A stretch of 64,000 bases of DNA from a virus (lineage: Duplodnaviria > Caudoviricetes), in the IMG/VR virus record IMGVR_UViG_3300033075_001896, positions 27,918-91,917 of that record; one strand, written 5' to 3'. Of this stretch, positions 9,895 through 34,233 are shown piece after piece. Below the pieces are notes generated by a model, which saw only the letters and a program-made list of their open reading frames with translations, had not been told where the DNA came from and did no database searches. Position numbers and translations under genes: made by a program. How positions within the stretch are numbered: the first letter of the stretch is position 1; every line of letters begins with the position of its first letter.

Positions 9895-10045
9895 CCCCGC
9901 CCGCGCCCTCCCCCCGGCGACCGTTCGCCCCGCGAACGACACCGCGCCGCCCGCGGTCGATCCCGCGCTCCTGCCGACCCTCGACGCGCTCGCGCACCTT
10001 CTCGTAGCGAATTTGAAGCGTGATCGGGCAAAGTCGCGCCCATGA
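9887..10045 (+). CDS. Small 52-aa ORF coupled to the integrase (possible directionality factor)
   Basis: Read from sequence: MGSPARALPP...LDALAHLLVANLKRDRAKSRP; GGAGG upstream; TGA overlaps the integrase ATG. Confidence 0.45.
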   Translation: MGSPARALPPATVRPANDTAPPAVDPALLPTLDALAHLLVANLKRDRAKSRP

Positions 10046-11718
10046 CCCTCCGCGCCGCCCTCTACGCCCGCCGCTCCACCGAGGAGCACCAGCGCGAGTC
10101 GATCGCCACCCAGGTCGAGAACGCCACCGCCTACGCCCGCGCGAAGCGCTGGACGATCACCCACACCTTCACTGACGAGGGCGTGAGCGGGGCGGAGTTC
10201 GTGCGCCGACCGGGGCTCGCGGCGCTCCTCGCGGCGTGCGCCGAGCGTGAGGTCGACGCGGTGATCGTGCGCGACCTCGACCGCATCGGCCGCGACACGC
10301 TCGAAGTGCCCGTGATCGTGCGGCGCCTCGGGGAGCAGGGCGTCGCGGTCTGGTGCTACGCGACCGACGCGCAGGTGCGCGCCGACGACCCCCTCTCCGC
10401 GTTCATCGCGGCGGCCACGTCCTTCGCGCGCGACATGGAGCGGCACGCGCTCGTCTCGCGCATCAAGGAGTCGCTCCGGCGCAAGGCCAAGAACGGCCTC
10501 GTCGCGGGCGGCGACGTGTACGGCTACGGCCGCGACCGGCGGCCCGACGGCGTGCACTACGTGATCGACGAGGCCGAGGCCGAGGTCGTCCGCGACATCT
10601 TCGAGCGCCGCGCGCAGGGCGAGGGGCTCCGCACGATCCTCCGCGCGCTCAACGCCCGACGCGTCCCCTCGCCGCGCGCGGGGAGCCGCGGCACCGGGTC
10701 GTGGTCGGTGAGCGTCCTGCAGGGCATGCTCTCGAACGAGCGCTACCGCGGCGTGCTCGTCTGGGGGCGCACCGGGGCGGAGTACGCGGGCCGCACGCGG
10801 AAGACCGTCGTGCGCGACGAGAGCCAGGTGGTGCGCGTCGAGCGCGAGGACCTTCGGATCGTGTCCGATGAGCTCTGGCACCGCGCGCAGGCCCGCACCG
10901 ACAAGGACCTCGTGAAGCGCGGGCTCACGGTCGCGCACGGCAAGCCAAAATTCCTCCTGGCCGGGCTCGCGCGGTGCGCCGTCTGCGGCGGGCCGATCCG
11001 CGCCCTGCACCGCCGCCGCAACAAGACCACGATCCGCGTGTACGGGTGCGCGTGGCGCGACGAGCGCGGCCCGGCCGTGTGCACCAACTCCACGCGCCGC
11101 CCCGTCGAGGCGTGCGAGGACGCAATCCTCCAGTGGTTCCGAAACCACGTGCTCGACGACACGGCCGTCGCGTACGTGCTCCACCGCGCGCAGGCGCTCC
11201 TCGCCGAGGAGCGCACGAAGGTCGGCGACGACCCCACGCTCGCGCTCGCCGCCGAGCTCGCCGAGGTCGAGCGCGAGGTCGCGCGTCTGACGCAGGCGGT
11301 GGTCGCGGGCGCGGGCTCCGTGCAGGCGGTCGTGGAGGCCCTCACCGCGCGCGACCGGCGGGCGAAGGAGCTGCGCGCCGAGATCGCCCGCGTCCGCGCC
11401 GAGAACGCGGAGCCGTTGCCCGAGTGGCCCGAGGCCCTCGACGACCTCCGCGCGCGGCTCGCGTCGCTGCGGGAGGAGTTCCGCAAGGGGGTGGACGAGG
11501 CGCGCGAGGTGCTCCGACGGTTCCTCGTCGGCCCGATCCTCTTCGCGCCCGTGGTGTTCGGGCCCCGTCACCACCGTTTCCAGATCACCGGAAAGGCCCT
11601 CGGTGGGAGGGGATTGTTGGCGTCCCTAGATGGGACCGAACAATCACCTTCCACTGCGAGAGGCCCCCTCCCTACCAGAGCGGTCGACGAGACTCAAGCG
11701 TTTCTTACGGCGGCGTAG
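10042..11718 (+). CDS. Large serine recombinase (integrase)
   Basis: YARRS catalytic Ser, DEGVSG, RDLDRIGR, recombinase domain (YGY, NERYRG), Zn ribbon (LAGLARCAVCG...YGC...C), coiled coil. Confidence 0.95.
   Translation: MTLRAALYARRSTEEHQRESIATQVENATAYARAKRWTITHTFTDEGVSGAEFVRRPGLAALLAACAEREVDAVIVRDLDRIGRDTLEVPVIVRRLGEQGVAVWCYATDAQVRADDPLSAFIAAATSFARDMERHALVSRIKESLRRKAKNGLVAGGDVYGYGRDRRPDGVHYVIDEAEAEVVRDIFERRAQGEGLRTILRALNARRVPSPRAGSRGTGSWSVSVLQGMLSNERYRGVLVWGRTGAEYAGRTRKTVVRDESQVVRVEREDLRIVSDELWHRAQARTDKDLVKRGLTVAHGKPKFLLAGLARCAVCGGPIRALHRRRNKTTIRVYGCAWRDERGPAVCTNSTRRPVEACEDAILQWFRNHVLDDTAVAYVLHRAQALLAEERTKVGDDPTLALAAELAEVEREVARLTQAVVAGAGSVQAVVEALTARDRRAKELRAEIARVRAENAEPLPEWPEALDDLRARLASLREEFRKGVDEAREVLRRFLVGPILFAPVVFGPRHHRFQITGKALGGRGLLASLDGTEQSPSTARGPLPTRAVDETQAFLTAA
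11603..11654. other. Candidate attP: imperfect inverted repeat inside the integrase 3' end
   Basis: GTGGGAGG-G-GATTGTT..GTCCC-TAGAT-GGGAC..AACAATC-A-CCTTCCAC; lower GC than flanks. Confidence 0.55.
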
Positions 11719-12199: not shown

Positions 12200-12505
12200 A
12201 TGAACCTCCATGACCCCGTTCTCAACACATACGACCTCGTGGATCGTCTGGTGAAGGTCCTCGGACTCGATGCGGATCGGGCCGCCGCGGTCGAGCGGCA
12301 GGTGCGCGCGCACTCCGAGGCGCACCGTACGTGGACCTTCCTGTGGGCGGTCGCAGAGCCGCCGCGCCCCCTCCCGTTGCAGGCGTGGATGGACGCCGCG
12401 CCGGAAACGCAAGTGTCGCGCACCGCGGTGCTCTCGTTTGAACGGGGACAGCTCGTGTCGATCGCGGCCTTCGACGGCCTGCCGGTGTGGTCGGCTACGG
12501 CGTGA
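12200..12505 (+). CDS. Hypothetical protein
   Basis: GGAG upstream; last gene of the + strand block. Confidence 0.5.
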   Translation: MNLHDPVLNTYDLVDRLVKVLGLDADRAAAVERQVRAHSEAHRTWTFLWAVAEPPRPLPLQAWMDAAPETQVSRTAVLSFERGQLVSIAAFDGLPVWSATA

Positions 12506-13520
12506 CGAGGTGGATTCCCATCGCGCAGGCGGTGTCCTCACCCGCCCATCCATCGACGGCGATCTTCGCGTTCTCGGGCGCGGTGGCGTTGTAGCTCCGC
12601 TGCCACGCGCGCACGGCCTCGCGCGCGTCCACCCCCGGCCCCGCGTGCCCCTCGCGGAGGAGAATCTGCACGATCTTCACCGCGGCGAGCGTCACCGCGT
12701 CGGGCCACGGGTCGCACCAGAGGATGAGCGGCGCGTTCGGCCGCACGCAGCGATCGAGGAGCGCGTGCACCTGTTCGTGCAGCTTCCACCGATACGCCTG
12801 GAGCGTGACGTAGAGCGGACGGTCGAGGCCCTCGGCGGCGAGCGCCGGGGTGATGTTCGCCCACTCCTTGTCCATGCGTTCGAACGTCGGGCGGTAGAAG
12901 GCCCCCTGCGCGTTGTAGATGTACGCCTGCCGGAACCTGCCGAGGTCGCAGACGACCGCGAACTCGTCCACGGGAAAGCCCCGGAAGACGCCCCCGTGCT
13001 CGATCGGCCGCGCGGTGCGGCGCACGTCGCCGTGGGCCTCGATCGCGTACCAGGGCTGATCGCCCACCCGCGCGGACGGCGCGCGACGGCGCAGGGCCTC
13101 GCCGAGTTCGAGCGCCCCTTGCTCGTCCATGTCGTCGGCCGGGCCGAGGTCCGAGTCCCACTGCCCCTCGGCGTCGAGGAGCCCGAAGCGGCACTTGGGT
13201 GCGGCGAGCACCTGTCCGACGAGATCGCCCTTCGCGCGGGCCGAGAGGTCACGGCTGTCGAGCCCCCACGACGCCCCCGCGGGCACGCCGTAGGTGTCGG
13301 CCAGGGCTTCGAGCCGGGGCCACGCATCGCGGAGGTCCTCGCAGAAGCCGTGGAAGACCACGCCGCGGACGAGGCCCTGCGTGCGCAGGCCCGCGATCTC
13401 GCGGACGTAGCGCGCGAGCGTGTCGCGCCGGGCCTGGAGGGTGTTCCCGCGGATCGCGCCGCGGTAGATCTGGAGGTACACGCCCGGGTCGATCCCGGGC
13501 GCGGCGGTCGGCGTGGTCAT
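12495..13520 (-). CDS. Putative endolysin (glycoside-hydrolase-like barrel plus C-terminal peptidoglycan-binding domain)
   Basis: LLDAE acidic motif; C-terminal AVRAWQRSYN...IAVDGWAGEDT typical of PG_binding_1; lysis context. Confidence 0.65.
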   Translation of the reverse strand: MTTPTAAPGIDPGVYLQIYRGAIRGNTLQARRDTLARYVREIAGLRTQGLVRGVVFHGFCEDLRDAWPRLEALADTYGVPAGASWGLDSRDLSARAKGDLVGQVLAAPKCRFGLLDAEGQWDSDLGPADDMDEQGALELGEALRRRAPSARVGDQPWYAIEAHGDVRRTARPIEHGGVFRGFPVDEFAVVCDLGRFRQAYIYNAQGAFYRPTFERMDKEWANITPALAAEGLDRPLYVTLQAYRWKLHEQVHALLDRCVRPNAPLILWCDPWPDAVTLAAVKIVQILLREGHAGPGVDAREAVRAWQRSYNATAPENAKIAVDGWAGEDTACAMGIHLVTP

Positions 13521-13696
13521 GGGCGCTCACCTCGGCGGAGGAAGGTCCCCTCGTTCGCCCGCAGCCGCGCGCAGGCGCACTGCGCCTCGGACGGGCACGT
13601 GCAGCGCGGGAGGAAGCCCGTCTGAAGGGGCTCCTCCCCGCGTCCGCGCAGCACCTCGGCCGGGGGCTTCGGAGGGGGTTGGCAGGGGTCACTCAT
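13517..13696 (-). CDS. 59-aa Cys-containing protein
   Basis: Read from sequence: MSDPCQPPPK...CTCPSEAQCAC...GERP; preceded by the TGAC motif; ATGA overlap with the endolysin. Confidence 0.5.
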   Translation of the reverse strand: MSDPCQPPPKPPAEVLRGRGEEPLQTGFLPRCTCPSEAQCACARLRANEGTFLRRGERP

Positions 13697-13711
13697 GCCC
13701 CTTGCCGCGCG

Positions 13712-14482
13712 TCAACGCGGCGGCGGGACGGTGGGCGCCGCGACGCGCACGGCGCGGACGGCGTGGAGTTCGCCCGTCCAGAAGACGTGCGTCGCGTAGG
13801 CGTAGGGGAGCCACGCGCGGCCCTGATCGCCCCAGGTGCTCCCCCACGAGTTCTGGATTCGAAAGGCCTTTCGCGCGTCGGAGTAGCCCACGAGGCAGAG
13901 GGCGTGTCCGCCCACGTAGACGCCCGAGGGGAGCGGGACCGTCGCGTCCTCCCCGAGACGTTCGAACGACTCGTAGATCCGCGCCCCCATCACGACGGGG
14001 TGGCCCGACGCGAGCTCCCACCGGAGCGTGTCGAGGTCCCAATCCAGGGGCTCCCAGGTGAGGAGCCGCGCGCGGCCGCGGTCGCGCTCGAGCTTCGTGG
14101 GCGGCGGGCCGCGGAAGTCGAGGCTGTGCTCCGCGAAGGGCCAGAGCGTGTCGGGGGCGAAGCCCGCCGTCTCGGCGTGCGTGAGCACGTCGGCGAGCAT
14201 CGCCCCGGCGTCGCGCTCGACCGTGCCCGCGCGCATCCGGCCGCCCCGGTAGAGGTCGAGCGGGGACGGGAACCACGACGCCGACCCTTGGAAGAGGAGC
14301 CGGAGGTAGAGGGCCAGCGCGGCCGCGTGGCCGGTGCAGCTCCCGAGCGGGCCCTGGTCGGTCGCCGGGTGCAGGTGCGCGAGCTCGACGTGGGGCGCGA
14401 GCGCGAGGAGATCGGACGCGGAGGCGCGCGTGCGCGTCCCGCGGTGCCCTTCGGGGGGCGGTGTCCAGCCGAAAGCCCTCAT
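13712..14482 (-). CDS. Papain-like C1 cysteine peptidase
   Basis: DQGPLGSCTGHA (catalytic Cys), GGHALCLVGY (His), QNSWG (Asn). Confidence 0.92.
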   Translation of the reverse strand: MRAFGWTPPPEGHRGTRTRASASDLLALAPHVELAHLHPATDQGPLGSCTGHAAALALYLRLLFQGSASWFPSPLDLYRGGRMRAGTVERDAGAMLADVLTHAETAGFAPDTLWPFAEHSLDFRGPPPTKLERDRGRARLLTWEPLDWDLDTLRWELASGHPVVMGARIYESFERLGEDATVPLPSGVYVGGHALCLVGYSDARKAFRIQNSWGSTWGDQGRAWLPYAYATHVFWTGELHAVRAVRVAAPTVPPPR

Positions 14483-14562
14483 GGCGTCCCGCGGACCTTC
14501 CAACGCACGACGGCGAAGGCGAGCATAAGCGCGCCGAGGAGGATGAAGCCGAGGAGCATCAT
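14479..14562 (-). CDS. 27-aa single-TM peptide
   Basis: MMLLGFILLGALMLAFAVVRWKVRGTP; ATGA overlaps on both sides. Confidence 0.55.
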   Translation of the reverse strand: MMLLGFILLGALMLAFAVVRWKVRGTP

Positions 14563-15146
14563 CGGACGCCACCGTCGGGCGGGTGAAGGTGGTCGAGGTC
14601 GCGGCGCAGGATCACGCCGCGGGACGCGGCGCGCAGCTCCAGCTCGCGCAGTTCCGCGTTGGTCGCGCGGCCTTCGGAGCGCCACCCGGCGTCCCCGTCG
14701 CACCCGGGCACGAGCGTATCGACCAGGGCGGCGACGGTGTCGGTCACGCGCTCGAGGACCCGACCGAGCGCCACCCCGTTGTCCGTGAGGGTCTGCGCGG
14801 CGACGACGAGCGCGGTGCGGACGCCCCCGACGGCCGCGTGCGCGGCGCATCGGTCGCCGCCCCGTTGCTCGTACGCATCGAGGGCGGTCTGGAGACCCTC
14901 GGCGGCCGTCGCGACGCCATCGAGGGCGCGGCCCACGACCGTCCGTGCAGGTTCGGGGAGGATCAGGTCGGTGATGGCGTGCGCGGCGGGCACGGCCCAC
15001 GTCAGGGTCGTGAGCACCGTGCGCGCGGTGTCCGTCCAGCTCGACGGCGTGACGGCGGGCGTGTCGGGCGAGGGTGGGGGGAGGGGGCGGCACGCGCCGA
15101 TGAGCGCGAGCACCAGGGCGAGGAGAAACAGTCGGAGGATCTTCAT
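14559..15146 (-). CDS. Lipoprotein in the lysis cassette (spanin-like?)
   Basis: Signal peptide and lipobox MKILRLFLLALVLALIGAC; helical body. Confidence 0.7.
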   Translation of the reverse strand: MKILRLFLLALVLALIGACRPLPPPSPDTPAVTPSSWTDTARTVLTTLTWAVPAAHAITDLILPEPARTVVGRALDGVATAAEGLQTALDAYEQRGGDRCAAHAAVGGVRTALVVAAQTLTDNGVALGRVLERVTDTVAALVDTLVPGCDGDAGWRSEGRATNAELRELELRAASRGVILRRDLDHLHPPDGGVR

Positions 15147-15833
15147 GCCCCTCCGCGGGGTGTCATCCCCGCGGCGCGTTAGCAGGCTTCGAGGTAGCCG
15201 CCGCGCAGGAAGCCGTGGTAGTCGCCCGCGAGGATCGACCCCCCGCCCGCGCCGCAGGTGTGCCCGTTCTTGTCGACGGTGATCGCGGGGACCGCGCCGT
15301 GCCGCACCCAACAGCGGTGCGCGTTGTCGTCGGGCATCGTGCAGTTCGCTGCGCGCGAGTCGATCGTCCAGTCGCGGCCGTTCGGCAGGCGCACCGTGAG
15401 GCAGTAGTCATCATCCCCGACGTGGAACGACCCCACGAGGCCGTGCAGCCACTCGGCGTCCCACATCGCGCCGATCGGCGCCTCCTTGAGCGTCGTCGGT
15501 TCGCCGCCGTCCGAGCGCGCGTAGAGCGCCTCCTCGCGCACCTGATAGGGGTCCGTCGGGGCGAAGGGCTGCTTGCACGCCTCGCAGTGCGTCGGGTAGC
15601 GCGGGTCGTCGTGGGGGTAGCGCTCGGCGTCGTCCGCGTCGCGCGGGGGGCGCCCGTTGAGCGCGACCGTCGCGACGCCCTTCGTCGTCGCGTCGCAGCC
15701 CCAGGCGCCCTTCACGGTGCAGGGGCGGGTGGAGGTCGGGGAGAAGCGCCGAAGGTCCACGCGGGCCTCGCCCGTCGGCGTGAGGAAGAAGCAGGGGACG
15801 CGTTCCATGCCCCTCCGCGGGGTGTCATCCCCG
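15144..15833. repeat. Exact 28-bp direct repeat (15144-15171 and 15806-15833)
   Basis: CATGCCCCTCCGCGGGGTGTCATCCCCG occurs twice. Confidence 0.95.
15179..15808 (-). CDS. Cys/His-rich protein, DUF6527-like C-terminus
   Basis: C-terminal ...GGSILAGDYHGFLRGG; several Cys. Confidence 0.6.
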   Translation of the reverse strand: MERVPCFFLTPTGEARVDLRRFSPTSTRPCTVKGAWGCDATTKGVATVALNGRPPRDADDAERYPHDDPRYPTHCEACKQPFAPTDPYQVREEALYARSDGGEPTTLKEAPIGAMWDAEWLHGLVGSFHVGDDDYCLTVRLPNGRDWTIDSRAANCTMPDDNAHRCWVRHGAVPAITVDKNGHTCGAGGGSILAGDYHGFLRGGYLEAC

Positions 15834-16607
15834 TAGGCGGTCGGCGAGCTCGGTGACGAGCGGGATGCCGCCGCCGACGCCGAGCACCGCGAGGTGCGAG
15901 AGCCCCCGCACGTCGAGCGCGTCGCCGAGGAGCGCGAACCCGACCATCGCCGCCGCGCCGCCCGCGGCCGTCACGGGCCGGGCCTTGGCCGCCTTGAGCG
16001 CGCCCTCGACCCCGAGGGCCATCACGGACAGCGCGACCACGACGGGCGTCGGGACGGTGTGGCCGCGGCTCTCGAAGTAGAGCGTCACGACGGTCGTCAG
16101 GATGGCGATGAGGCCGCGCAACATGCGGCGGCTGTGGAGGTCGGCGATCTCGACGCGCGGGTCGCGCGGGGCAGGCGACGTACTCGCGTCGACGGCCGTC
16201 GCCACCAGGTCGGACTTCGGCGCGGGCGGCACCGCGCTCGTCGGCACGGCCGTCGTGCGACCCGGGCGCGCGAGGAGCTCGTGCACGAGGCTGCGCAGCA
16301 CGGCGGGCTCGAAGGGCTTGGAGAGGTAGCGCCACCCGCGCTCCCCTGCGATGCGCTCCAGCTCCTTTCCGTCCGCGCCCGAGAAGAGGAGCACCGGGAG
16401 CTGCTGCGCGGTGAGCGCGTCGTGGAGGCGCTCGGTCGCGACGCCGAGCACGAGGTCGAGGAGCACCGCGTCCGGTCGGTCGGCGAGGATCGCGGCGAGC
16501 GCGTCGCCCACGTCGCGGGCCTCGGTGACGGCGTGCTCCGGGCGGAGCATCGCCGCGACGGCGGCGCGTACCGCGTCGTTGTCGTCGATGAGAAGGATCT
16601 TCGGCAT
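15825..16607 (-). CDS. Response-regulator receiver domain fused to 3-4 TM helices (holin candidate)
   Basis: KILLIDDN, DAVLLDLVL (phospho-Asp), LLFSG, YLSKPF; hydrophobic C-terminal third. Confidence 0.85.
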   Translation of the reverse strand: MPKILLIDDNDAVRAAVAAMLRPEHAVTEARDVGDALAAILADRPDAVLLDLVLGVATERLHDALTAQQLPVLLFSGADGKELERIAGERGWRYLSKPFEPAVLRSLVHELLARPGRTTAVPTSAVPPAPKSDLVATAVDASTSPAPRDPRVEIADLHSRRMLRGLIAILTTVVTLYFESRGHTVPTPVVVALSVMALGVEGALKAAKARPVTAAGGAAAMVGFALLGDALDVRGLSHLAVLGVGGGIPLVTELADRLRG

Positions 16608-16682
16608 GGTCGCTCGTCGGTGATCCCGCAGCGCGGGAGGGACCGTCCCGCAGTGGGGCGGCGTTCACCGCTCGACACGACG

Positions 16683-16925
16683 TCACCCCGGCGGCGGAGC
16701 GGGCGCGGGCTCGATCACCCAGGTGGGCGGGAGCGGATCGGGGGCGGGCGCGAACCCCGGCGCCCCGGGCGGAGCGGCTTCGCGCACCTCCACGAGCGGG
16801 TCTTCGGTGTCGCCGACCTCGCGCGGGGTGCGGTAGATCGTGGCGCCCTCCCCGCGAAGGGAGTGGAGCAGATAGTTGCGAATGCCCCGGTGCGGCGAAG
16901 GGGGGATGCGACGGTAGACGGCCAT
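16683..16925 (-). CDS. Small Pro-rich protein after the tail fibre
   Basis: MAVYRRIPP; starts 2 nt after the upstream stop. Confidence 0.5.
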   Translation of the reverse strand: MAVYRRIPPSPHRGIRNYLLHSLRGEGATIYRTPREVGDTEDPLVEVREAAPPGAPGFAPAPDPLPPTWVIEPAPAPPPG

Positions 16926-16927
16926 GG

Positions 16928-18124
16928 TCAGACGCCTCCAGGGCGACCCGTGCGGATCGCGTGAATCGCCACGTCGAGATTCACACCGGAGCCCGTCGTG
17001 AGCCCCACGATCACGCAGTACGTCCCGGCCGCGCAGCGCACGGCGTTCCGCGCCGCGGCGGCATACCCGAGCCCCGCGTGATCGATCGTGCTGTAGATCG
17101 GGACCCACTTCGTCGGGAGCGCACCCGACGTGCCCGTGTTGATGCCGTACTTCCACGACACGGCGTCGTGCGTGCGCGTGATGAGGAACCACAGCTCCCC
17201 GCCCGTGCGCACGGCGTCGGTGAGGGCGGCTACCGAGATGATCGCGAGGGAGCTGTACGCCCCCGCATCGACGTACGCGGGCTCCACCTGCCCGTTCGTC
17301 CAGAAGGCGAAGTTGCAGGTGTTCTCGTCGTCGCTCCCGATGTTGAACACGATGCGCGTGGCCGAACTGCCGTCCCCGTTGAGGACCTGCACGCGCACCG
17401 CGAGGAGGCATTCCTCGGGCGACGTGAAGAGGTCGGGGATCTCCGCGCCGCAGAAGCCCATCGCCGCGGGGTCGACGTCCAGCGTGAGCTTGCCATCCGC
17501 CCACGTCGCGGTCGCCCCGCCCGTGGCGGTGAGCGCCGCCCACCCGTCGCCCGTCATGTCCTCGCTGCGCAGGCCCGCGGTCGTGGGCGCCGCCGACTGC
17601 CACACGCTCCCGTCGTAGGTGAGCACGTGCCCCGCCGTGGGCGACGTGGGCGCCTTGATCGCGCCGAGCTCGGCGAGCACGTCATCGGCGGTCGCGCCCA
17701 TCGAGCGGAAGCGCCACGCCCCGTTCACCCGCTTCCAAAGCGTGCCCGACCCGGAGCCCGAGGACACGTACCACTGGTCGCCCTCGCGCACGGGCGAGAG
17801 GGCGTCGCGCTCGGCGAGCGTGCCCGAGAGGACGCGCGCCCGCGCCGCGTAGCTCGTGCCCGAACCCGTGGAGAGGAGCATCTGCCCCGCGGCCGTGGCC
17901 GACGGGAGCGTCGCGCCGCCCATCGAGCGCCACGTGCTCCCGTCCCAGAGCGTCACGGCCGGCGTGTCGGTCGCGTAGTGGAGCGAGGGCTGCGCGGGGG
18001 ACGCGGGCCGCGACCCCGCCACGGTCGCGCCCGCCCACAGGACGGCCGTCTCGGGCTCGATGAGCGTCGGCGGCTGCGTCGGATCGACGAGGCGGCGACG
18101 GCTCGTGCCGGGGGAGAGCTGCAT
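16928..18124 (-). CDS. Tail fibre / receptor-binding protein
   Basis: Fibre-type repeats (YATDT..LWDGSTW, AGHVLTYDGSVW, GDQWY) and a beta-rich C-terminus. Confidence 0.7.
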   Translation of the reverse strand: MQLSPGTSRRRLVDPTQPPTLIEPETAVLWAGATVAGSRPASPAQPSLHYATDTPAVTLWDGSTWRSMGGATLPSATAAGQMLLSTGSGTSYAARARVLSGTLAERDALSPVREGDQWYVSSGSGSGTLWKRVNGAWRFRSMGATADDVLAELGAIKAPTSPTAGHVLTYDGSVWQSAAPTTAGLRSEDMTGDGWAALTATGGATATWADGKLTLDVDPAAMGFCGAEIPDLFTSPEECLLAVRVQVLNGDGSSATRIVFNIGSDDENTCNFAFWTNGQVEPAYVDAGAYSSLAIISVAALTDAVRTGGELWFLITRTHDAVSWKYGINTGTSGALPTKWVPIYSTIDHAGLGYAAAARNAVRCAAGTYCVIVGLTTGSGVNLDVAIHAIRTGRPGGV

Positions 18125-18127
18125 CGG

Positions 18128-19990
18128 TCACTTCTCCTTGAAGCCGAGGACGCGGACGGTGGCCGTGCCGCTGTAGCCGCTCGGGATGCGGTAGTCGAAC
18201 TGCTGCGCGCCCCCGAGGTGCAGGTGCACCTCGCGGCGGACCTCCTGCGCGGCGGTGTTGGCCTCGACGAGGAGCGGCACGCCCGTGCCCGGGGCGTTGA
18301 TCTTGCGCACCTCGACGCCGCCGTTCGCCGCCCCCGACGCGTTCACCTGAAGCTCCAAGAGCGCCAGCGTGACGGTCGAGCCGACGGGGGGCACGAGGGA
18401 CGCGCACGAGACGCTCGTCCACGAGGTCTGCGTCCCCGCCGTGAGCACGTCGAGGCCCGACGTGAAGATCGTCCGGTCCCAATACCACCAGCCCTCGTAG
18501 CGGTGCCCGGGGAGCGGCACGCCGGAGCCGTCGGTGCGGATCGGGCCGAGGTAGCGGTGCGTCCCGGCCGCGCCGCCCTTCCACGTGTACGAGTCGTCCG
18601 GGGGCGTCGGCGAGACCTCGACCGCGAGCGTGCCGCCCGAGGCGTAGAGGTAGAGGTAGCGCCAGGCCCCGGCCGCGTAGCCCGAGGGCGTGATCGTGAA
18701 GCCGCCCGTCGCGCTGTAGCTCCGCTGCCCGAGGACCACGAGCTGAATCGGGGCGACGTAGATTTTCGTGCCTGCCCCGATGTCCTTCACCGAGTAGTTG
18801 CCGCCGATCAGGAGCCCGTTGAGGGAGTCGGTGACCGACGCGAGCGCGACGGTTTCGAGCGCCGAGGTGTCGAGCGCCCGCACCGAGACCTTCTCGCCGC
18901 CCGAGAGCGCCGAGAGGAGCGTGACCGTGGTCGCGTCGGTCTCGGTGTACTCGGACTCGGCGAGCACCGCCCCATCGACGATCACCTCCAGGCAGTGCGC
19001 CCCGGGCGTGTACGCGAACGGGAGGTTGAGCGCCGTCTGCGAGCTCGTCCCGGTCGTCTCGTAGTAGCGGCGCGTGCCCGTGGTCGCGCGCTGGAAGCCG
19101 CGCGCGTCCTGGAGGTTCTGCGGCGTGATCGTCGTCTGACTCGGCGAGAGGCCGACGAACGCGAGCGGGAGGACGCCGCGCGTCGAGGGCCGCACGGGCG
19201 AGGACGCCTCGGTGCCCTGCCGCACGCCGAGCGTGCCGTTCGCCGCGAGGTAGAGGAGGTCGATGCGCGGGTTCGAGGTCGGGGCCGTGAAGGTCGGCGA
19301 CGTGCCGCCCACGTAGGCCACGTGCGTGTCGTCGATGTTGAAGCGCCCCGCGGCCACGCGCAGGGCCAGTGAGGGCGGGTCGGTGGGCGTGACCTCGCCG
19401 TCGCGCTTGACCGACTCGTCGTACACGTCCTCCGCGCGGTTGAGCACGGGGACGTCGAGGAGCCGCACGTCCGTCGTGCGGATCGCCGTCAGGCCGTTCG
19501 TGATCTTCACCCGCCCGAGGAGCACGGGGTTCCCCGAGGGGGCCGCGGGGTAGGTCGCGGTCGAGACCGGCGCCGAGGTGCCCGAGACCCGCAGGATCTC
19601 GTACGACTCAGGCTGCGTTGTGTAGACCGTCGTCGCGTCCGGGGCGGTGGAGGGGTCCGCGGAGGTGCGCGCGAAGCGGAGGTAGATCGCGACGAAGCGC
19701 TCCTGCCCCGAGGCGACGGCCGTCGCCGTGTTGCCCGAGTCGAGGCTCAGATCCACGGTGACTGTGGTGGGGACGTTGAGGCGACGTCCGAGCGCGTCGT
19801 ACGCCACGCCCGCCGAGAGCTGGAGCGTCAGGTTCGGCGACGCCTGCTCCGTGAGCTGGAGCCCCGCGGCGACGCCGTAGCCGAGGAGGTCGGTGACGAT
19901 CGCGCGGTCGGCGTTCTCGGCGTTGTCCTGCCAGGAGTGCACGTCCGTGTGCTCGATCACGAAGTCGCGGTGGTATACGCGTCGGTCCAT
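18128..19990 (-). CDS. Baseplate-anchored tail fibre protein
   Basis: GVAYDALGRR, NPRIDLL...GT..P..P motifs; Thr/Gly-rich. Confidence 0.7.
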   Translation of the reverse strand: MDRRVYHRDFVIEHTDVHSWQDNAENADRAIVTDLLGYGVAAGLQLTEQASPNLTLQLSAGVAYDALGRRLNVPTTVTVDLSLDSGNTATAVASGQERFVAIYLRFARTSADPSTAPDATTVYTTQPESYEILRVSGTSAPVSTATYPAAPSGNPVLLGRVKITNGLTAIRTTDVRLLDVPVLNRAEDVYDESVKRDGEVTPTDPPSLALRVAAGRFNIDDTHVAYVGGTSPTFTAPTSNPRIDLLYLAANGTLGVRQGTEASSPVRPSTRGVLPLAFVGLSPSQTTITPQNLQDARGFQRATTGTRRYYETTGTSSQTALNLPFAYTPGAHCLEVIVDGAVLAESEYTETDATTVTLLSALSGGEKVSVRALDTSALETVALASVTDSLNGLLIGGNYSVKDIGAGTKIYVAPIQLVVLGQRSYSATGGFTITPSGYAAGAWRYLYLYASGGTLAVEVSPTPPDDSYTWKGGAAGTHRYLGPIRTDGSGVPLPGHRYEGWWYWDRTIFTSGLDVLTAGTQTSWTSVSCASLVPPVGSTVTLALLELQVNASGAANGGVEVRKINAPGTGVPLLVEANTAAQEVRREVHLHLGGAQQFDYRIPSGYSGTATVRVLGFKEK

Positions 19991-21203: not shown

Positions 21204-22247
21204 TCACCCGAGGGCGGTGTTCCGTCCGAGCAGGGACGTGCCGAGGCGCCACGACGGGTGCCGCGCGGCGGCGTCGTCGAGCGTGACGGTCATCGTGGAG
21301 GGGCGCATCACCTCGATCACCTGCGCGAGCGCGCGCCGCTCGTCGCTCGTGAGCACGCGCGGCAGGACGAGCGCGAGCGTGAACGCGTCGTCGGCCGGGG
21401 TCGCCCCGCGGGCCGACGCGGCGAGCGCCGTGGCCAGGACCTCGGTGGTCGCGAGCTCGATCCGGTCGCCCGCCGTGAGGCCCGTCGGATTCTCGCGGCG
21501 CCACACCCGCACGACCGCCCCCCGCGCGAGCGGCGCGGCGAAGGTGATCGTGGACGCGGACGTCTCCGACCACGCGGGCGCGTCCACGCGAAGACGGTCG
21601 ACCGTCACGACCAGCGTCCCGATCCCCACCGTGTAGCTGAAGGGGAGCGTGAGCGCCGACTCGCCGCCGTAGGCCGTGTATTCATGGCCGCGCGTGAGGA
21701 GCTCGACCCGTCGCGGCTCGACCGCGAGGAAGGCCGTCCGGTCGAGCTCCACCCCGTTGCGCCACGCCCGCAAGGTCCCTGTGTGCGGCGTCACGCGCCA
21801 GCGCGCGTCGGTCACGTCGATCGCGGTCTCGCCGCCCGTCGCGGTGTAGACGAACGAGAGGCCCCCGAGGTGCGACCGCCCGAGGCGCCACGCCTGACGT
21901 CGCTCGCCGCGCAGGTACGCCTCTTCGCCGAGGAAGAGGCGTACGGCGTCGAGGAGCCCGGGGGCCGTGCCCTTCTCGCGGTAGAGCGGCACGAGGAGCG
22001 CCACGACCTTGCGCTGGAGCGCCTCGGGGAGGGTCGTGTCGAGCGTCCAGCCCTTCGCCCGCGCAAGCTCGGGGAGCCACCGCGCCGCGCAGGTGAGCGG
22101 GTCGTCGAGCGTGAGGAGCTGCCCCGTGTCGTCGTAACGGTCGCCGAGCGCGTCGTCGGCGAGGCGCACGAGGGACGCGAGGGGTTCGGCCGGGGCCTCG
22201 CGCCGCCAGAACCGGGGGAGGGCGTCCCAGAGCGTCGGGCGGGCCAT
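21204..22247 (-). CDS. Baseplate/tail protein, P2 gpI-like
   Basis: LPELARAKGW...LYREKGTAPG...FLG. Confidence 0.85.
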   Translation of the reverse strand: MARPTLWDALPRFWRREAPAEPLASLVRLADDALGDRYDDTGQLLTLDDPLTCAARWLPELARAKGWTLDTTLPEALQRKVVALLVPLYREKGTAPGLLDAVRLFLGEEAYLRGERRQAWRLGRSHLGGLSFVYTATGGETAIDVTDARWRVTPHTGTLRAWRNGVELDRTAFLAVEPRRVELLTRGHEYTAYGGESALTLPFSYTVGIGTLVVTVDRLRVDAPAWSETSASTITFAAPLARGAVVRVWRRENPTGLTAGDRIELATTEVLATALAASARGATPADDAFTLALVLPRVLTSDERRALAQVIEVMRPSTMTVTLDDAAARHPSWRLGTSLLGRNTALG

Positions 22248-23701
22248 CAGGGCGTCTCCTGAATCACCGTCACGGCGGGCGTCGCGGCGAGCGCGGCGAA
22301 CTGCACGGCCGTGAAGGTCGGGTCGCTCGCGGGCGACGTGACCTCGACGCGCGTCACGCCCGCGAGGGACTGGCAGGCGTCGTACATCCTCGACCGCGGC
22401 ACCGGGTAGCCGAAGCGCAGCACGTAGAAGCCCTCCTCGTCGCGCGCCCCCGGCGTCCAGAGCGCGGCGAGGGCGGCCTGCGCGGCGGTCTGGAGGGCCG
22501 CGGCGTCCACGTCCGCGCGGCAGTAGACCGTCACGGCGATCGACTGCGCGACGTACACGGCGCTCACGACCGACACCTCAAGGCCCGCGGGGCAGGGCTT
22601 GGTCTCGGTGACGTACGTGTGCACCGCGTCGAGGAGCGTCGCGTCGGGCGATCCGCCCGCCGTCGGGACGACGTAGAGGCGGTGCTGGAGGTGGCCGAGG
22701 GTCGCGTCCTCGCGCCGCGTGTGGCAGAGCGCGCGGGCGACGCCCGGCACCTCGACCGCGTGGAGCTCGTAGTCCTCGCGGCTCACCGTCCGATCCGTGG
22801 CGCGGAGCGAGTCGGGCGCGGCGTACCGGGCGTGCTCCAGGCTCTCGCGGTCGGTGCCGCCCGCGGCGTCGCCGGGGTTCGTCACGGTGACCTCGACGGG
22901 CAGGCCCGCGGCGGTCGCGAACGAGCCCTGCACGCGCCGCAGCGTGCCGCGCCGCACGCGCCCGGCCGCGCCGAGCGTGGTCCGGTAGGTGACGGTGATC
23001 GTGGCGCCCTCGGCGGGGCGCTTGCCGTTCACCCCGTCGCCGAAGACGACCGTGGCGCGCTCGTCGGCGTCGCGCTCGACCACGTAGTGCTGCGACGCGG
23101 ACGTCGACGAGAGGAAGTTCGCGACGCGCGTCCACGTCACGCCGCCGACCCGCACCACCTCGCTCGCGCGCACGAAGGGCGTGGCCGAGAGGGTCACGCG
23201 CTGGCCCGTGGGCCACGCGCCCGCCGCGTCGCCGACGAAGCTCTGCGTCTGCGCGCGCCCCTCGGTGCAGGCCACCGTGCGCGACGTCTGCCCCGGCGCG
23301 AAGGTCACCGCGGCGTCGGTCGTGTAGACCACCGCGCCGTCTTCCGTGTAGACCTCGGTCCCCGCGGCGATCGGCACCGCGTCCGACTGCGACGGGATCG
23401 CGAGCGAGACGGTGACCGTCGGGGGCGTCGGCGACGCGAGCTCGTACGCGAGGCCCCGCGCGTGGTCGATCACGCTCTGGCGCAGGCGCGCGCGGTGGAT
23501 GAACGCCTCGTTGAGGCCGCGGTTCTGGTAGTACGTGAGCTTCGCGCCGACGGTCGCGACGGCCACGAACCAGCGCCGGTCGGGCGACCCTTCGGAGAGG
23601 TCGAGGCCCGCGAGCGAGGGCTCCCCCGCGGCGTTCGTCGTGAGCTCCGCGAGGATGCCCTCGAAGTCGAGCACGGTGTACTGAAGCGCACGAGGGGCCA
23701 T
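22247..23701 (-). CDS. Baseplate J-like wedge protein
   Basis: DFEGI, FGDGVNGKRP, GGTDRES, DRTVSREDYE; start MAPRALQY after the TGAC motif. Confidence 0.92.
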   Translation of the reverse strand: MAPRALQYTVLDFEGILAELTTNAAGEPSLAGLDLSEGSPDRRWFVAVATVGAKLTYYQNRGLNEAFIHRARLRQSVIDHARGLAYELASPTPPTVTVSLAIPSQSDAVPIAAGTEVYTEDGAVVYTTDAAVTFAPGQTSRTVACTEGRAQTQSFVGDAAGAWPTGQRVTLSATPFVRASEVVRVGGVTWTRVANFLSSTSASQHYVVERDADERATVVFGDGVNGKRPAEGATITVTYRTTLGAAGRVRRGTLRRVQGSFATAAGLPVEVTVTNPGDAAGGTDRESLEHARYAAPDSLRATDRTVSREDYELHAVEVPGVARALCHTRREDATLGHLQHRLYVVPTAGGSPDATLLDAVHTYVTETKPCPAGLEVSVVSAVYVAQSIAVTVYCRADVDAAALQTAAQAALAALWTPGARDEEGFYVLRFGYPVPRSRMYDACQSLAGVTRVEVTSPASDPTFTAVQFAALAATPAVTVIQETP

Positions 23702-23731
23702 CGCCCCTCGCGGGTGGTCACCCCGACGCGG

Positions 23732-23747
23732 TGGCACGCCGCGCGCA
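23732..23747 (+). promoter_or_regulatory. Putative sigma54 -24/-12 promoter
   Basis: TGGCACGCCGCGCGCA upstream of the ParB-like gene. Confidence 0.5.
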
Positions 23748-23800
23748 ACGCGGGGACGGGCGCGCGGCCGCACAGGGCGACCCGCGTTCAGGAGCACGCC

Positions 23801-24895
23801 ATGACACGACGCCAGAAGATCGAAGCGCCCGACGCGCAGCCGACCTCGCCCGCCACCCTCCCCGCGTCCGAGAAGGTGCGCGTCACGCCCGCCCTCGCCC
23901 GCGAGTGGCTGGAGAAGTACAACCGGCGCAACCGCCCGCTGCGCGAGGCGGTCGTGGATCGCTACGCCGAACAGATGAAAGAGGGCGAGTGGCAGGAGAC
24001 GGGGGACACCGTGAAGTTCGGGGCGGACGGTCTCCTCTACGACGGCCAGCACCGCCTCTCCGCGGTCGCGCGGTCGGGCCGCACCGTGGAGCTGTGGGTG
24101 GTGCGCGGCCTGCCGCCGGGCGCGCGCGAAGCGATCGACATGGGCGAGGCGCGGCGCGCGTTCGACAACCTCGCCATCTCCGACGGGTTGAGCCTCGCGG
24201 CGGAGGACCGGACGTGGCTCACGGCCATCGCGCGCCACGCCTACGGCGTGCACCACAAGCTCACGGTCTCCGTCGCGCGGGCGGTGCTCGCCGCGTACGG
24301 CCCCGGGCTCAAGGTCGCGCGCGAGGTGTTCAAGGGCCACCAGCGCGGGCTCTGCCGCGCCTCGTACGTCGGGGCGTTCATCTTCGCGTACCGCAAGGAG
24401 GGCGAGCGCGTGGCCGAACTCATGCGCCGGTTCCGCGACGGCGCGAACCTCGACGCGAAGGACCCGATCCTCTTGCTCCGCAACTCGATGATGACGACGT
24501 CGTCGGGCGGGTACGTCGTCGGCCACGCGGAGTTCGAGCGGACGTGCGCGGCCGTGGCCGCGGCGCTCGACGGCGAGAAGCGGGCGCGCCTCATCCGCAG
24601 CGCCGCGGCGCTCGAACGCTTCCGCGTGCCGAACGACACGTGCCTCGCCACGGCGAAGGAAGAGGCCGTGACCCTCGACGGGCTCATCAAGACCTACGGT
24701 GAGGTCTGCGTGCGCGCCGCGCTCGACGCGAAGGACGTGCTCACGGAGCGTCAGAAGGAGGTCCTGCGCGAGGTGCTCTCGGGCAAGGACACGTCCTCGA
24801 TCCGCGCGCAGGACGGCGTGACCCGCCAGGACATCTTCAAGGTCCGACGGGCGGCGCTCCGCAACCTGCACAAGCACCTGTCCGCGCAGGGGTAG
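23801..24895 (+). CDS. ParB-like N-terminal domain protein with C-terminal sigma70-r4/LuxR-type HTH
   Basis: VTPALAREWLE..NRPL, DGQHRL; LTERQKEVL...GVTRQDIFKVRRAALRNL; AGGAG SD. Confidence 0.75.
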   Translation: MTRRQKIEAPDAQPTSPATLPASEKVRVTPALAREWLEKYNRRNRPLREAVVDRYAEQMKEGEWQETGDTVKFGADGLLYDGQHRLSAVARSGRTVELWVVRGLPPGAREAIDMGEARRAFDNLAISDGLSLAAEDRTWLTAIARHAYGVHHKLTVSVARAVLAAYGPGLKVAREVFKGHQRGLCRASYVGAFIFAYRKEGERVAELMRRFRDGANLDAKDPILLLRNSMMTTSSGGYVVGHAEFERTCAAVAAALDGEKRARLIRSAAALERFRVPNDTCLATAKEEAVTLDGLIKTYGEVCVRAALDAKDVLTERQKEVLREVLSGKDTSSIRAQDGVTRQDIFKVRRAALRNLHKHLSAQG

Positions 24896-24923
24896 CGGCC
24901 CGTCGCGTGCAGCGCCACCGCGC

Positions 24924-33834: not shown

Positions 33835-34233
33835 CCCGAGGGGGTGTACGCTCCGCGCGTGCACCCCTACCGCACCCCCGCACCGCCACGCTGGCGCCTC
33901 ACGCCCTCTCGGGCGGCCCTGATCGTCGCAGGGCTTCTGTTCTTCGCCGCACTCACGTTCCTCGTACGCGTCTCGTGGCGCGTGTGGGGCGGTGGGTGAG
34001 CTGGAAGAGTCGCCGCCCCGATTCCCCCTCCGCACCCGGCCCGATGCCGGGCACACCCCGTCGCCCGATGCAACCGCACTCGATCGCGTACGTCCCGCAG
34101 TCGTCCGTGCTCGAACCTACGCCTGAGGTGATCCCGCCGCCGCCCGAGCCGTACGACGAGCTCGCCGACGCGGTGGCCGAGCGCGCCGCAGTCGAGCGAC
34201 TCAGGCGCGGGGAGTAACGCGGCACTTGCCGCC

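What the first reader, a model, noticed from the sequence alone, without database searches (positions are those of the whole stretch)
15825..16607. Receiver domain fused to holin-like TM helices at the head of the lysis cassette: possible phosphorylation-gated lysis
Seen: a complete REC domain retaining the acidic pair (IDDN), phospho-acceptor Asp (LLDLVL), Ser (LFSG) and Lys-Pro (SKPF), then a Pro/Ala/Thr linker and 3-4 hydrophobic helices. It lies between the tail fibres and the lipoprotein/peptidase/endolysin genes, where a holin is expected; no other multi-TM holin candidate and no histidine kinase were seen in the window. Established: REC phosphorylation switches oligomeric state, and holin triggering depends on oligomerisation. 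Inference: lysis timing could be wired to a host two-component signal or to acetyl-phosphate. I know of no described REC-holin fusion.
Basis: partly seen in the sequence, partly recalled or inferred. Interest (0 to 1): 0.87.

Follow-up and report, generated by a model that had tools for sequence, protein, structure and literature searches.

The report
Receiver-domain membrane protein in phage holin slot
An uncultured high-GC temperate phage encodes a bacterial phospho-receiver switch fused to a new four-helix membrane domain, sitting where phages normally keep their hole-forming lysis gene, so host phospho-signalling may help set the time of cell bursting, though nothing has been tested at the bench.

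Summary
ORF 15825-16607 (-) encodes 260 aa: a complete receiver (REC) domain, a Pro/Ala/Thr linker and about 110 aa forming four Gly/Ala-rich hydrophobic helices.

The membrane domain matches no known family. It defines a small metagenome-only family of about 30 clusters at 50% identity. About 18 carry the REC, whose phosphorylation residues are invariant in 22 aligned members. At least seven lack it, including one in-frame REC deletion.

Context was recovered for ten lineages. Eight place the gene directly upstream of a lipoprotein gene (in this window one inserted gene intervenes). Seven have a cell-wall enzyme one to six genes downstream: GH25 twice, Amidase_2 twice, and three putative enzymes, including this window's TIM-barrel protein. 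A 155-aa REC-less member occupies the same slot before a GH25 enzyme.

No histidine kinase, second REC or classical small multi-TM holin was found in the 92-kb virus record.

My best reading (about 0.5) is a new holin-type lysis protein with a REC regulatory module. Hole formation and phospho-gating remain untested. The rivals are an antiholin or lysis regulator, an inner-membrane partner of the lipoprotein, or a non-lysis role.

Earlier unchecked notes of this scan report membrane-anchored receivers beside lysis genes in other, unrelated phages.

The parts
15825..16607 (-). REC-TM gene (260 aa plus stop)
   Evidence: ORF with third-position GC 0.95. Nine close clusters and 30 representative clusters for the C-terminal domain.
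16269..16607 (-). Receiver (REC) domain, residues 1-113. It has the acidic pair D8/D9, phospho-acceptor D51, S76 and K97-P98.
   Evidence: Pfam PF00072 at E 2.4e-9. AF2 pLDDT about 90. Foldseek matches to CheY, PhoB and Spo0F. D9, D51, S76, G77, K97 and P98 are invariant in 22 family members.
16164..16268 (-). Pro/Ala/Thr-rich linker, residues 114-148, with a semi-conserved R-x-T-x-x-x-P motif
   Evidence: pLDDT below 50. It is the least conserved part of the protein, with mean pairwise identity 0.31. P122 is nearly invariant.
15828..16163 (-). Juxtamembrane helix (conserved SRR) plus four Gly/Ala-rich hydrophobic helices, residues 149-260. This is a new membrane domain.
   Evidence: Hydropathy. 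AF2 helices. Charge distribution. Profile search returns only this family. No Pfam, PHROGs or NCBIfam family matches.
16683..16925 (-). 80-aa non-membrane ORF between the tail fibre gene and REC-TM. It starts 2 nt after the fibre stop codon.
   Evidence: A 76-aa gene is called at the same place in L005.
16928..19990 (-). Two tail-fibre genes (398 and 620 aa) directly upstream
   Evidence: PHROG matches. Homologues sit upstream of REC-TM in L001, L005 and L013.
15179..15808 (-). 209-aa gene of unknown function, bracketed by an exact 28-bp repeat. It is probably a recent insertion between REC-TM and the lipoprotein gene.
   Evidence: Repeats at 15144-15171 and 15806-15833. Its homologue lies upstream of REC-TM in L001-L004.
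14559..15149 (-). Lipoprotein, 196 aa, with a signal peptide ending in the lipobox L-I-G-A-C
   Evidence: Homologue in L001 at 27% identity.
14479..14562 (-). 27-aa single-TM micro-ORF, joined by ATGA overlaps to the lipoprotein stop and the peptidase start
   Evidence: It is kept in L005-L008 and L019, with only hydrophobic-for-hydrophobic substitutions.
13712..14482 (-). Papain-like (Peptidase_C1 / C39-like) peptidase, 256 aa from the ATG at 14482
   Evidence: Pfam PF00112 at E 2.9e-5 and phrog_16701 'peptidase' at E 4.5e-14. Start site.
12495..13520 (-). 341-aa TIM-barrel glycoside-hydrolase-like protein with a C-terminal three-helix domain. It is the candidate endolysin.
   Evidence: AF2 pLDDT 94. 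The best VIA-align match is the peptidoglycan hydrolase Cwp19 (Z 16.0), tied with many GH18, GH5 and other TIM barrels. Two of 70 homologue clusters carry PG_binding_1.

Best explanation
The gene encodes an inner-membrane lysis protein of a temperate contractile-tailed phage, most likely the holin.

Anatomy (shown or modelled): an N-terminal cytoplasmic receiver domain with every residue needed for Asp phosphorylation; a disordered linker of about 35 aa; a conserved basic juxtamembrane helix (SRR); and four Gly/Ala-rich helices. The likely topology is N-in/C-in, with a conserved short periplasmic loop (G-H) and a conserved cytoplasmic R/K-R-P loop.

Working model (inferred): the gene is expressed with the late genes, and the membrane domain accumulates in the inner membrane. 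There it self-associates to let the signal-less cell-wall enzymes encoded downstream reach the peptidoglycan. The membrane domain is the effector. The REC is an add-on regulator whose phosphorylation state changes how readily the membrane domains assemble. The phosphate would come from a host histidine kinase or acetyl phosphate, since the phage record has no kinase. Lysis timing would thus be tied to host physiology.

Shown here: domain composition, conservation, gene neighbourhood, and the existence of REC-less forms. Inferred: membrane insertion, hole formation, phosphorylation, and which way phosphorylation pushes the system.
For: 1. The REC is real and looks able to accept a phosphate. 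Pfam, fold model and fold search agree. D9, D51, S76, G77, K97 and P98 are invariant across 22 members that fall to about 33% identity with the window protein.

2. The membrane domain is an independent, conserved unit. Its mean pairwise identity (0.42) equals that of the REC (0.43) and exceeds the linker (0.31). Glycines in helices 2, 3 and 4 are invariant.

3. Seven of 30 representative clusters have the membrane domain without the REC.
- P0024 equals P0028 minus the REC, an in-frame loss.
- P0011 starts in an ATGA overlap with a different upstream gene.
- P0016 (155 aa) sits two genes upstream of a GH25 gene.

4. The family keeps company with lysis enzymes, on the same strand and often with 4-nt start/stop overlaps.
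- This window and L005: lipoprotein, papain-like peptidase and TIM-barrel enzyme.
- L001: lipoprotein, peptidase and a 381-aa protein whose C-terminus reads like a peptidoglycan-binding domain; this last point is my reading of the sequence, not a tool match.
- L013 and L024: Cys-rich lipoprotein, then Amidase_2 at E 8.9e-14 and 3.8e-18.
- L030 and L029: lipoprotein, then GH25 at E 8.8e-25 and 3.9e-28.
- L018: lipoprotein, then an unassigned protein of at least 215 aa that runs off the contig end and only weakly resembles the L001 381-aa protein (E 0.006).

5. The downstream enzymes start without a hydrophobic signal or anchor. By established lysis biology they would need a holin to reach the wall.

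6. The family protein is the only multi-span membrane protein in these cassettes. No Amidase_2, Phage_lysozyme, SLT or PG_binding_1 match lies elsewhere in the 92-kb record.

7. Related cassettes that lack this family have other small membrane proteins in the equivalent upstream position. L025 has 2-TM ORFs before the lipoprotein homologue, and L027 has a multi-TM region fused to the Cys-rich lipoprotein-like domain.

8. The gene sits in a tightly packed late-strand array: fibre stop, 2 nt, 80-aa ORF, 75 nt, REC-TM, then the shared 28-bp element. There is no sign of a separate transcription unit.
Against: - The membrane domain has no detectable similarity to any described holin family. Pfam gave no match even at E up to 10, and the best PHROG holin match was E 0.63.
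- At 260 aa the fused protein is larger than typical holins.
- Helices 3 and 4 are only marginally hydrophobic, and the AF2 model of this part has low confidence.
- Two lineages show no lysis enzyme in the short sequence available. In L016/L017 a convergent gene follows. In L014 the next gene looks non-membrane, possibly structural, and the contig ends soon after.
- A conserved 27-aa TM micro-ORF in the same cassette and two single-TM ORFs elsewhere could be the real hole-former or a partner.
- The virus record is about 78% complete, so a holin or a kinase could lie in the missing part.
- There is no expression, membrane or phosphorylation data of any kind.
Confidence: 0.5

Rival explanations
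1. Lysis regulator or antiholin. The REC-TM protein forms no holes itself. It binds and restrains, or licenses, a separate holin in the membrane and passes on host phospho-signals. The separate holin could be the 27-aa TM peptide or a gene outside the cassette.
For: - It shares the lysis-cassette linkage described for the best explanation.
- A conserved single-TM micro-ORF lies in this cassette.
- L018 has a 124-aa protein with an N-terminal TM directly upstream of, and overlapping, the REC-TM gene.
- Earlier unchecked notes of this scan describe membrane-anchored receivers next to separate holin-like genes in other phages.
- By established knowledge, antiholins are often membrane proteins encoded beside holins.
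Against: - In L013, L024, L029 and L030 no other integral membrane protein is visible between the fibre genes and the endolysin.
- The micro-ORF is not found outside the close relatives of this window.
- REC-less members are kept in the same slot. That fits an effector better than a signal relay.
Confidence: 0.2
2. Inner-membrane partner of the lipoprotein: a spanin-like or other envelope complex. The four-helix protein anchors or receives the downstream lipoprotein through its conserved periplasmic loop. The pair would act on the outer membrane at the last step of lysis.
For: - A lipoprotein gene directly follows the family gene in L001, L013, L018, L022, L024 and L029.
- In L030 it follows after one gene.
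- In this window it follows after the 209-aa gene, which an exact 28-bp repeat marks as a likely insertion.
- Four of the small lipoproteins form one family with a single conserved Cys and a Pro/Ala-rich tail, which resembles o-spanins.
- No classical i-spanin was seen.
Against: - The protein has no periplasmic domain. Its two periplasmic loops are about 7-10 residues long. The defining i-spanin architecture, one N-terminal TM plus a long periplasmic coiled coil, is therefore absent.
- The lipoproteins of different lineages are not all homologous.
- This reading leaves the cassettes with no holin at all.
Confidence: 0.1
3. Not a lysis gene. It would be a membrane-tethered receiver that acts on the host: a phosphate sink or decoy for a host two-component pathway, or a superinfection-exclusion or conversion function carried next to the tail-fibre genes.
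For: - The gene always follows tail-fibre or lectin-like genes.
- By established knowledge, phage exclusion lipoproteins such as Cor and Llp are encoded next to receptor-binding genes.
- L016/L017 and L014 show no lysis enzyme nearby.
- Kinase-less single-domain receivers commonly act as phosphate sinks.
Against: - The gene has tight, often overlapping coupling to downstream cell-wall enzymes in most lineages.
- It has no separate promoter-like or terminator-like signals, and its composition matches the late genes.
- REC-less members are kept in the same slot, which a phosphate sink would not explain.
- The membrane helices and loops are too strongly conserved for a simple tether.
Confidence: 0.12

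Closest known systems
Phage T4 holin T with antiholin RI (lysis inhibition)
   Same: A holin that carries a soluble regulatory domain, through which an outside signal delays or permits hole formation. This rests on established knowledge. It is the closest functional analogy to the proposed model.
   Different: T has one TM span and a periplasmic regulatory domain that binds a separate protein. Here the regulatory module is a cytoplasmic two-component receiver fused in cis to four helices. There is no sequence similarity.
Phage N4 pinholin gp63 with lysis regulator gp62 (PMC12642591)
   Same: The paper describes a holin with a conserved regulatory region, placed by the authors in the cytoplasm, where mutations speed up lysis. 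The idea of tuning a holin from the cytoplasmic side is the same.
   Different: The N4 'Receiver domain' is the authors' name for a short region. It is not a Response_reg fold and no phosphorylation is proposed. gp63 has a single TM span.
Lambda S105/S107 and phage 21 pinholin S21-68
   Same: Small inner-membrane proteins encoded at the head of a lysis cassette and triggered by oligomerisation. The pinholin has a weakly hydrophobic Gly/Ala-rich helix, which recalls helices 3 and 4 here. This rests on established knowledge plus composition.
   Different: They have two or three TM spans and are regulated by a dual start. No dual-start motif is present here, there is no homology, and this protein is twice the size.
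LytSR-controlled LrgAB / CidAB holin-like proteins
   Same: A two-component signal linked to holin-like membrane proteins with four helices (established knowledge).
   Different: That control acts on transcription through a DNA-binding response regulator, in bacterial chromosomes. Here the receiver is physically fused to the membrane protein, inside a phage. No Pfam match to LrgA or CidA was found.
Single-domain response regulators (CheY, Spo0F, DivK, CpdR)
   Same: The receiver fold and all catalytic residues are the same. The best structural and sequence matches are of this kind, plus PleD and PhoB receivers. They have no DNA-binding output.
   Different: Those proteins are soluble and act by contact with other proteins. 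This one is joined to an integral membrane domain and is encoded by a phage with no kinase.

Membership tests
Response regulator receiver domain (Pfam PF00072, CheY-like) | Sequence match above the curated threshold | tested here: met
   37.8 bits against a cut-off of 30.2, E 2.4e-9, covering profile positions 1-110 of 111. 46 PDB receiver sequences match at E up to 0.001.
Response regulator receiver domain (Pfam PF00072, CheY-like) | (beta/alpha)5 fold | tested here: met
   The AF2 model has five strand-helix units at pLDDT about 90. Foldseek target-normalised TM-score is 0.8-0.87 to CheY4, PhoB, Spo0F and RR468.
Response regulator receiver domain (Pfam PF00072, CheY-like) | Acidic pair, phospho-acceptor Asp, conserved Ser/Thr and Lys | tested here: met
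   D8/D9, D51, S76 and K97 are present in the window protein. D9, D51, S76 and K97 are invariant in 22 family members.
Response regulator receiver domain (Pfam PF00072, CheY-like) | Actual phosphorylation on Asp | not testable with these tools
   Needs acetyl phosphate or kinase assays. No kinase is present in the 92-kb record.
Holin (functional class) | Small integral inner-membrane protein with at least one TM span and a charged cytoplasmic end | tested here: inconclusive
   There are four predicted helices. Two are clear by hydropathy and two are marginal. The charged C-terminal tail is short. The fused protein is 260 aa, but REC-less relatives are 135-188 aa.
Holin (functional class) | Encoded next to the endolysin in a lysis cassette | tested here: met
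   GH25, Amidase_2 or putative wall enzymes lie one to six genes downstream on the same strand in seven of ten lineages examined.
Holin (functional class) | Homology to a described holin family | tested here: not met
   Pfam gave no match at E up to 10. The only PHROG holin match was E 0.63. NCBIfam gave none. The profile search of 1.8 billion representatives returned only this family.
Holin (functional class) | Lethal membrane permeabilisation that releases endolysin | not testable with these tools
   Needs expression and complementation tests.
i-spanin (Rz-like) | Single N-terminal TM span followed by a long periplasmic coiled-coil domain | tested here: not met
   There are four helices with periplasmic loops of about 7-10 residues. 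The soluble domain is N-terminal and is a cytoplasmic-type receiver.
Known anti-phage defence proteins (PADLOC) | Match to a defence-system model over most of the protein | tested here: not met
   The only match is a partial one to SduA, over residues 2-58 of the receiver, at E 4.5e-5. The four neighbouring proteins give nothing.

The most novel reading that the evidence does not exclude
The receiver domain directly gates hole formation. Its phosphorylation, by a host kinase or by acetyl phosphate, switches the fused four-helix domain between an inert and a hole-forming assembly. The phage would then read the host's signalling or energy state to decide when to burst the cell. This would be the first holin controlled by two-component phosphotransfer, and REC-less relatives would be natural unregulated versions.
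Probability: 0.3. Interest if true: 0.85.

Novelty: new variant of a known kind. Interest (0 to 1): 0.68.

Why it matters
How phages set and adjust the moment of lysis is a long-standing question. The well-studied answers are holin concentration, dual-start antiholins and T4-type lysis inhibition, and none of them involves host phospho-signalling.

A holin-position membrane protein fused to a fully conserved receiver domain gives a directly testable design. Natural REC-less versions in the same slot serve as built-in controls. One aspartate can be mutated, the membrane domain can be expressed alone, and the phosphodonor can be varied.

The finding also adds a new membrane-domain family and a new receiver output type (an integral membrane effector). 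It links to several unchecked scan notes of membrane-anchored receivers beside lysis genes in unrelated phages, so the principle may be widespread.

Tried and rejected
- **Known families for the membrane domain.** Pfam at E up to 10, PHROGs on nine members, NCBIfam and PADLOC gave nothing usable.
- **ESM Atlas on residues 146-260.** The best scores were 0.78, below the level at which hits mean anything.
- **GenBank phages.** tblastn found no match for REC-TM or for the 341-aa protein. The portal protein gave only hits below 35% identity to phages of many different hosts, so it gave no host call.
- **185,579 species genomes.** No relative of the membrane domain was found by pattern scan. IMG/VR gave one. 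JGI metagenome contigs gave only three close relatives. A broader alignment (A4) was too diverse for that tool.
- **Fold search of the membrane domain.** The full-length model was searched against PDB, but only the receiver matched.
- **Complex prediction, two copies of residues 146-260.** No verdict: score 0.00, controls not run. This is not evidence either way.
- **Promoter and terminator consensus scan of 12300-18300.** Nothing found. This is uninformative for a 72% GC organism.
- **Literature.** No paper describing a receiver-holin fusion was found. The 'Receiver domain' of N4 gp63 is an unrelated use of the term.
- **Internal start idea.** I considered an internal start at Met162 that would make a REC-less isoform. 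I rejected it because that residue is Leu in most relatives.
- **Misassembly idea.** I considered that the REC-less short proteins are truncated gene calls. I rejected this for P0011, P0016 and P0024, whose contexts or alignments show complete genes. It remains open for P0017, P0018, P0037 and P0038.
Full report
**1. Setting**

The window is 72% GC and is part of a 91.9-kb IMG/VR virus record. That record is linear and estimated about 78% complete; the window is bases 27918-91917 of it. Its minus strand carries a contractile-tail structural module:
- portal (48274-49941);
- capsid (45592-46551);
- tape measure (35187-37847);
- baseplate J (22247-25075);
- Tail_P2_I (21204-22247);
- two fibre genes (18128-19990 and 16928-18124).

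A large serine recombinase lies at 10042-11718 on the plus strand.

The host is unknown. Homologues of the neighbouring 341-aa enzyme occur in genome bins labelled Myxococcaceae, Myxococcales and Deltaproteobacteria, plus one bin labelled Saccharibacteria whose assignment I doubt. A Gram-negative Myxococcota host is therefore plausible but not shown.

**2.

ORF 15825-16607 (-) has third-position GC of 0.95 and encodes 260 aa.
- Residues 1-113 are a receiver domain. Pfam gives E 2.4e-9, above the curated cut-off. The AF2 model has pLDDT about 90. Foldseek matches to CheY4, PhoB, Spo0F and RR468 reach target-normalised TM-score 0.8-0.87. The best PDB sequence matches are PleD and CheY-like receivers.
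- The acidic pair (D8/D9), phospho-acceptor (D51), S76 and K97-P98 are all present.
- Residues 114-148 form a disordered Pro/Ala/Thr linker.
- Residues 149-260 begin with a conserved basic juxtamembrane stretch (SRR) and are modelled as four helices.
- By hydropathy the first two helices are clear membrane spans. The last two are marginal and Gly/Ala-rich.
- Lys and Arg cluster before helix 1, between helices 2 and 3, and at the C-terminus. This fits an N-in/C-in four-span topology with the receiver in the cytoplasm.

**3. The membrane domain is a new family and is the constant part**

Whole-protein search found only nine clusters, all REC-fused and all metagenomic.

A profile of the C-terminal domain alone, searched against 1.8 billion representatives, found 30 clusters and nothing else.
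- About 18 are 250-320 aa with an N-terminal REC.
- Seven (135-188 aa) have the membrane domain preceded only by a Pro-rich tail.
- The rest are fragments.

Three of the REC-less forms are genuine:
- P0024 equals P0028 with residues of about 30-175 (the REC) missing, while the leader and membrane domain remain at 69% identity.
- P0011 starts in an ATGA overlap with a lectin/fibre-like gene.
- P0016 is a complete gene inside a 13-kb contig.

In 22 aligned REC-bearing members that fall to about 33% identity with the window protein, D9, D51, S76, G77, K97 and P98 are invariant. So are G199, A206, P211, G217 and G243 in the membrane part. REC and membrane domain are equally conserved (0.43 and 0.42 mean pairwise identity), and the linker less so (0.31).

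The membrane domain matches no Pfam, PHROGs, NCBIfam or PADLOC family. No relative was found in 185,579 species genomes or in GenBank phages.

**4. Neighbourhoods point to lysis**

I recovered context for ten lineages.

| Lineage | Family protein | Genes that follow, same strand |
|---|---|---|
| Window, L005-L008 | REC-TM | 209-aa gene, lipoprotein, 27-aa TM micro-ORF, papain-like peptidase, 341-aa enzyme |
| L001-L004 | REC-TM | lipoprotein, 62-aa, papain-like peptidase, 107-aa, 381-aa protein whose C-terminus reads like a peptidoglycan-binding domain (my reading, no tool match) |
| L013 | REC-TM | Cys-rich lipoprotein, 276-aa protein, Amidase_2 (E 8.9e-14), SLT-like fragment |
| L024 | REC-TM | Cys-rich lipoprotein, HExxH protein, 165-aa, Amidase_2 (E 3.8e-18); the first four genes joined by 4-nt overlaps |
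| L018 | 124-aa N-terminal-TM protein, then REC-TM | lipoprotein, then an unassigned protein of at least 215 aa that runs off the contig end; all overlapping |
| L030/L031 | REC-TM | 94-aa, lipoprotein, GH25 (E 8.8e-25) |
| L029 | REC-less 155-aa member | lipoprotein, GH25 (E 3.9e-28) |
| L022 | REC-less 135-aa member | lipoprotein, then the contig ends |
| L014/L015 | REC-TM | a non-membrane protein, then the contig ends |
| L016/L017 | REC-TM | a convergent gene |

Seven of the ten lineages therefore have a known or putative cell-wall enzyme one to six genes downstream, and these enzymes are of at least three unrelated kinds. This kind of shuffling around a constant membrane gene is typical of holin-endolysin cassettes.

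The enzymes begin without hydrophobic signal or anchor sequences, so they would need a holin to cross the membrane.

The window's own 341-aa protein folds with high confidence (pLDDT 94) into a TIM barrel plus a small helical C-terminal domain. Its best structural neighbour is the Clostridioides difficile peptidoglycan hydrolase Cwp19 (Z 16.0), but many chitinases and other glycosidases are statistically tied. Two of its 70 homologue clusters carry PG_binding_1. I therefore call it a candidate endolysin, not a proven one.

No Amidase_2, Phage_lysozyme, SLT or PG_binding_1 match lies elsewhere in the 92-kb record.

**5. The slot**

Related cassettes that keep the lipoprotein, peptidase or 341-aa homologues but lack this family have other membrane proteins in the upstream position.
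- L025 has two small 2-TM ORFs before the lipoprotein homologue.
- L027 has a multi-TM Gly/Ala-rich region fused to the Cys-rich lipoprotein-like domain, followed by homologues of the L013 276-aa protein and of the 341-aa enzyme.

None of the four p341-bearing genome contigs has a REC-TM relative within 10 kb. This supports the view that the family occupies a replaceable 'membrane protein at the head of the cassette' position.

**6. Constant companion**

A lipoprotein gene directly follows the family gene in most lineages.

In the window they are separated by the 209-aa gene. That gene is bracketed by an exact 28-bp repeat (15144-15171 and 15806-15833), which contains the stop of the preceding gene, a small hairpin-like GGGG...CCCC, a GGAGG and the ATG. 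In L001-L004 its homologue lies on the other side of REC-TM. The 209-aa gene is therefore probably a recent insertion, and REC-TM followed directly by the lipoprotein is probably the ancestral order.

Four of the small lipoproteins (L018, L022, L029, L030) form one family with a single conserved Cys and a Pro/Ala-rich tail, reminiscent of o-spanins.

Because no classical i-spanin is visible, I keep as a rival the idea that the four-helix protein is the inner-membrane partner of the lipoprotein. Its lack of any periplasmic domain argues against a spanin-like role.

**7. What remains open**

- No kinase is present and this is the only REC in the record, so any phosphodonor must be host-derived or acetyl phosphate. 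This is inference.
- A 27-aa single-TM micro-ORF (14479-14562) is joined by ATGA overlaps to both neighbours. It is kept in the close relatives with only conservative hydrophobic substitutions. It could be a partner or even the real hole-former, but it is absent from the more distant cassettes.
- Single-TM ORFs at 33844-33999 (+) and 42357-42557 (-) also exist.
- The self-association test of the membrane domain gave no verdict.
- I found no published description of a receiver-holin fusion.
- The closest published analogy is regulation of holins through soluble domains: T4 holin T with RI (established knowledge) and N4 gp63 (PMC12642591).
- Earlier unchecked notes of this scan report membrane-anchored receivers beside lysis genes in several unrelated phages. 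I did not test those.

**8. Verdict**

The comparative evidence makes a lysis role likely, at about 0.8 summed over the holin, regulator and lipoprotein-partner readings. The holin reading is the single best explanation at about 0.5. Hole formation and phospho-gating are still inferences.

The feature is a new variant of a known kind: a holin-position membrane protein of a new family that carries a two-component receiver.

Noticed in passing
window 15144-15171 and 15806-15833: An exact 28-bp direct repeat brackets the 209-aa gene. It holds the stop of the upstream gene, a GGGG...CCCC mini-hairpin, GGAGG and the ATG. In L001-L004 the homologue of that gene lies on the other side of REC-TM. The repeated element may serve as a recombination point for moving gene cassettes.
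   Followed up: partly
window 14479-14562 (-): A 27-aa single-TM micro-ORF overlaps the lipoprotein stop and the peptidase start by ATGA at both ends. It is kept in L005-L008 and L019 with only hydrophobic-for-hydrophobic changes, and is absent from the more distant cassettes.
   Followed up: partly
L001 8889-9149: An 86-aa chimeric ORF joins a copy of the lipoprotein signal peptide to a copy of the last part of the REC-TM membrane domain. It is absent from the otherwise identical L002 and L003. It is either a real local duplication or an assembly artefact.
   Followed up: no
L023 18-584 (P0024) versus L018 616-1575 (P0028): This is a natural in-frame loss of the whole receiver domain. The short N-terminal leader and the membrane domain are kept at 69% identity.
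   Followed up: yes
L027 8792-9388: A single 198-aa ORF joins a Gly/Ala-rich multi-TM region to a lipobox and a Cys-rich domain homologous to the L013 lipoprotein. A possible in-frame internal start would give a separate lipoprotein. It sits upstream of a homologue of the window's 341-aa enzyme.
   Followed up: partly
window 12495-13520 (-); L026 10004-11005: The 341-aa TIM-barrel protein defines a family of at least 70 clusters with no Pfam match to its TIM-barrel catalytic part. In a Myxococcaceae bin (L026) a homologue stands alone beside RND efflux pump genes, away from any phage genes seen in that locus.
   Followed up: partly
window 16164-16268 (-) and alignment A5: The otherwise variable linker holds a semi-conserved R-[PT]-T-x-x-x-P motif, and P122 is nearly invariant. 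In many relatives the middle position is Met, and several REC-less proteins start near it. It may be a docking or processing site.
   Followed up: no
L030 6001-6846 (P0013): This family member has an extra, fifth hydrophobic helix appended after the usual C-terminus.
   Followed up: no
window 916-3486, 5655-7577, 10042-11718 (+): The plus-strand block left of the cassette holds a large C-5 cytosine DNA methylase fusion, a long protein ending in a NUDIX domain and a large serine recombinase. The 28 kb of the virus record outside the window contains an ORF with an SGGxDS motif, as in QueC-type enzymes; I did not check this further.
   Followed up: no
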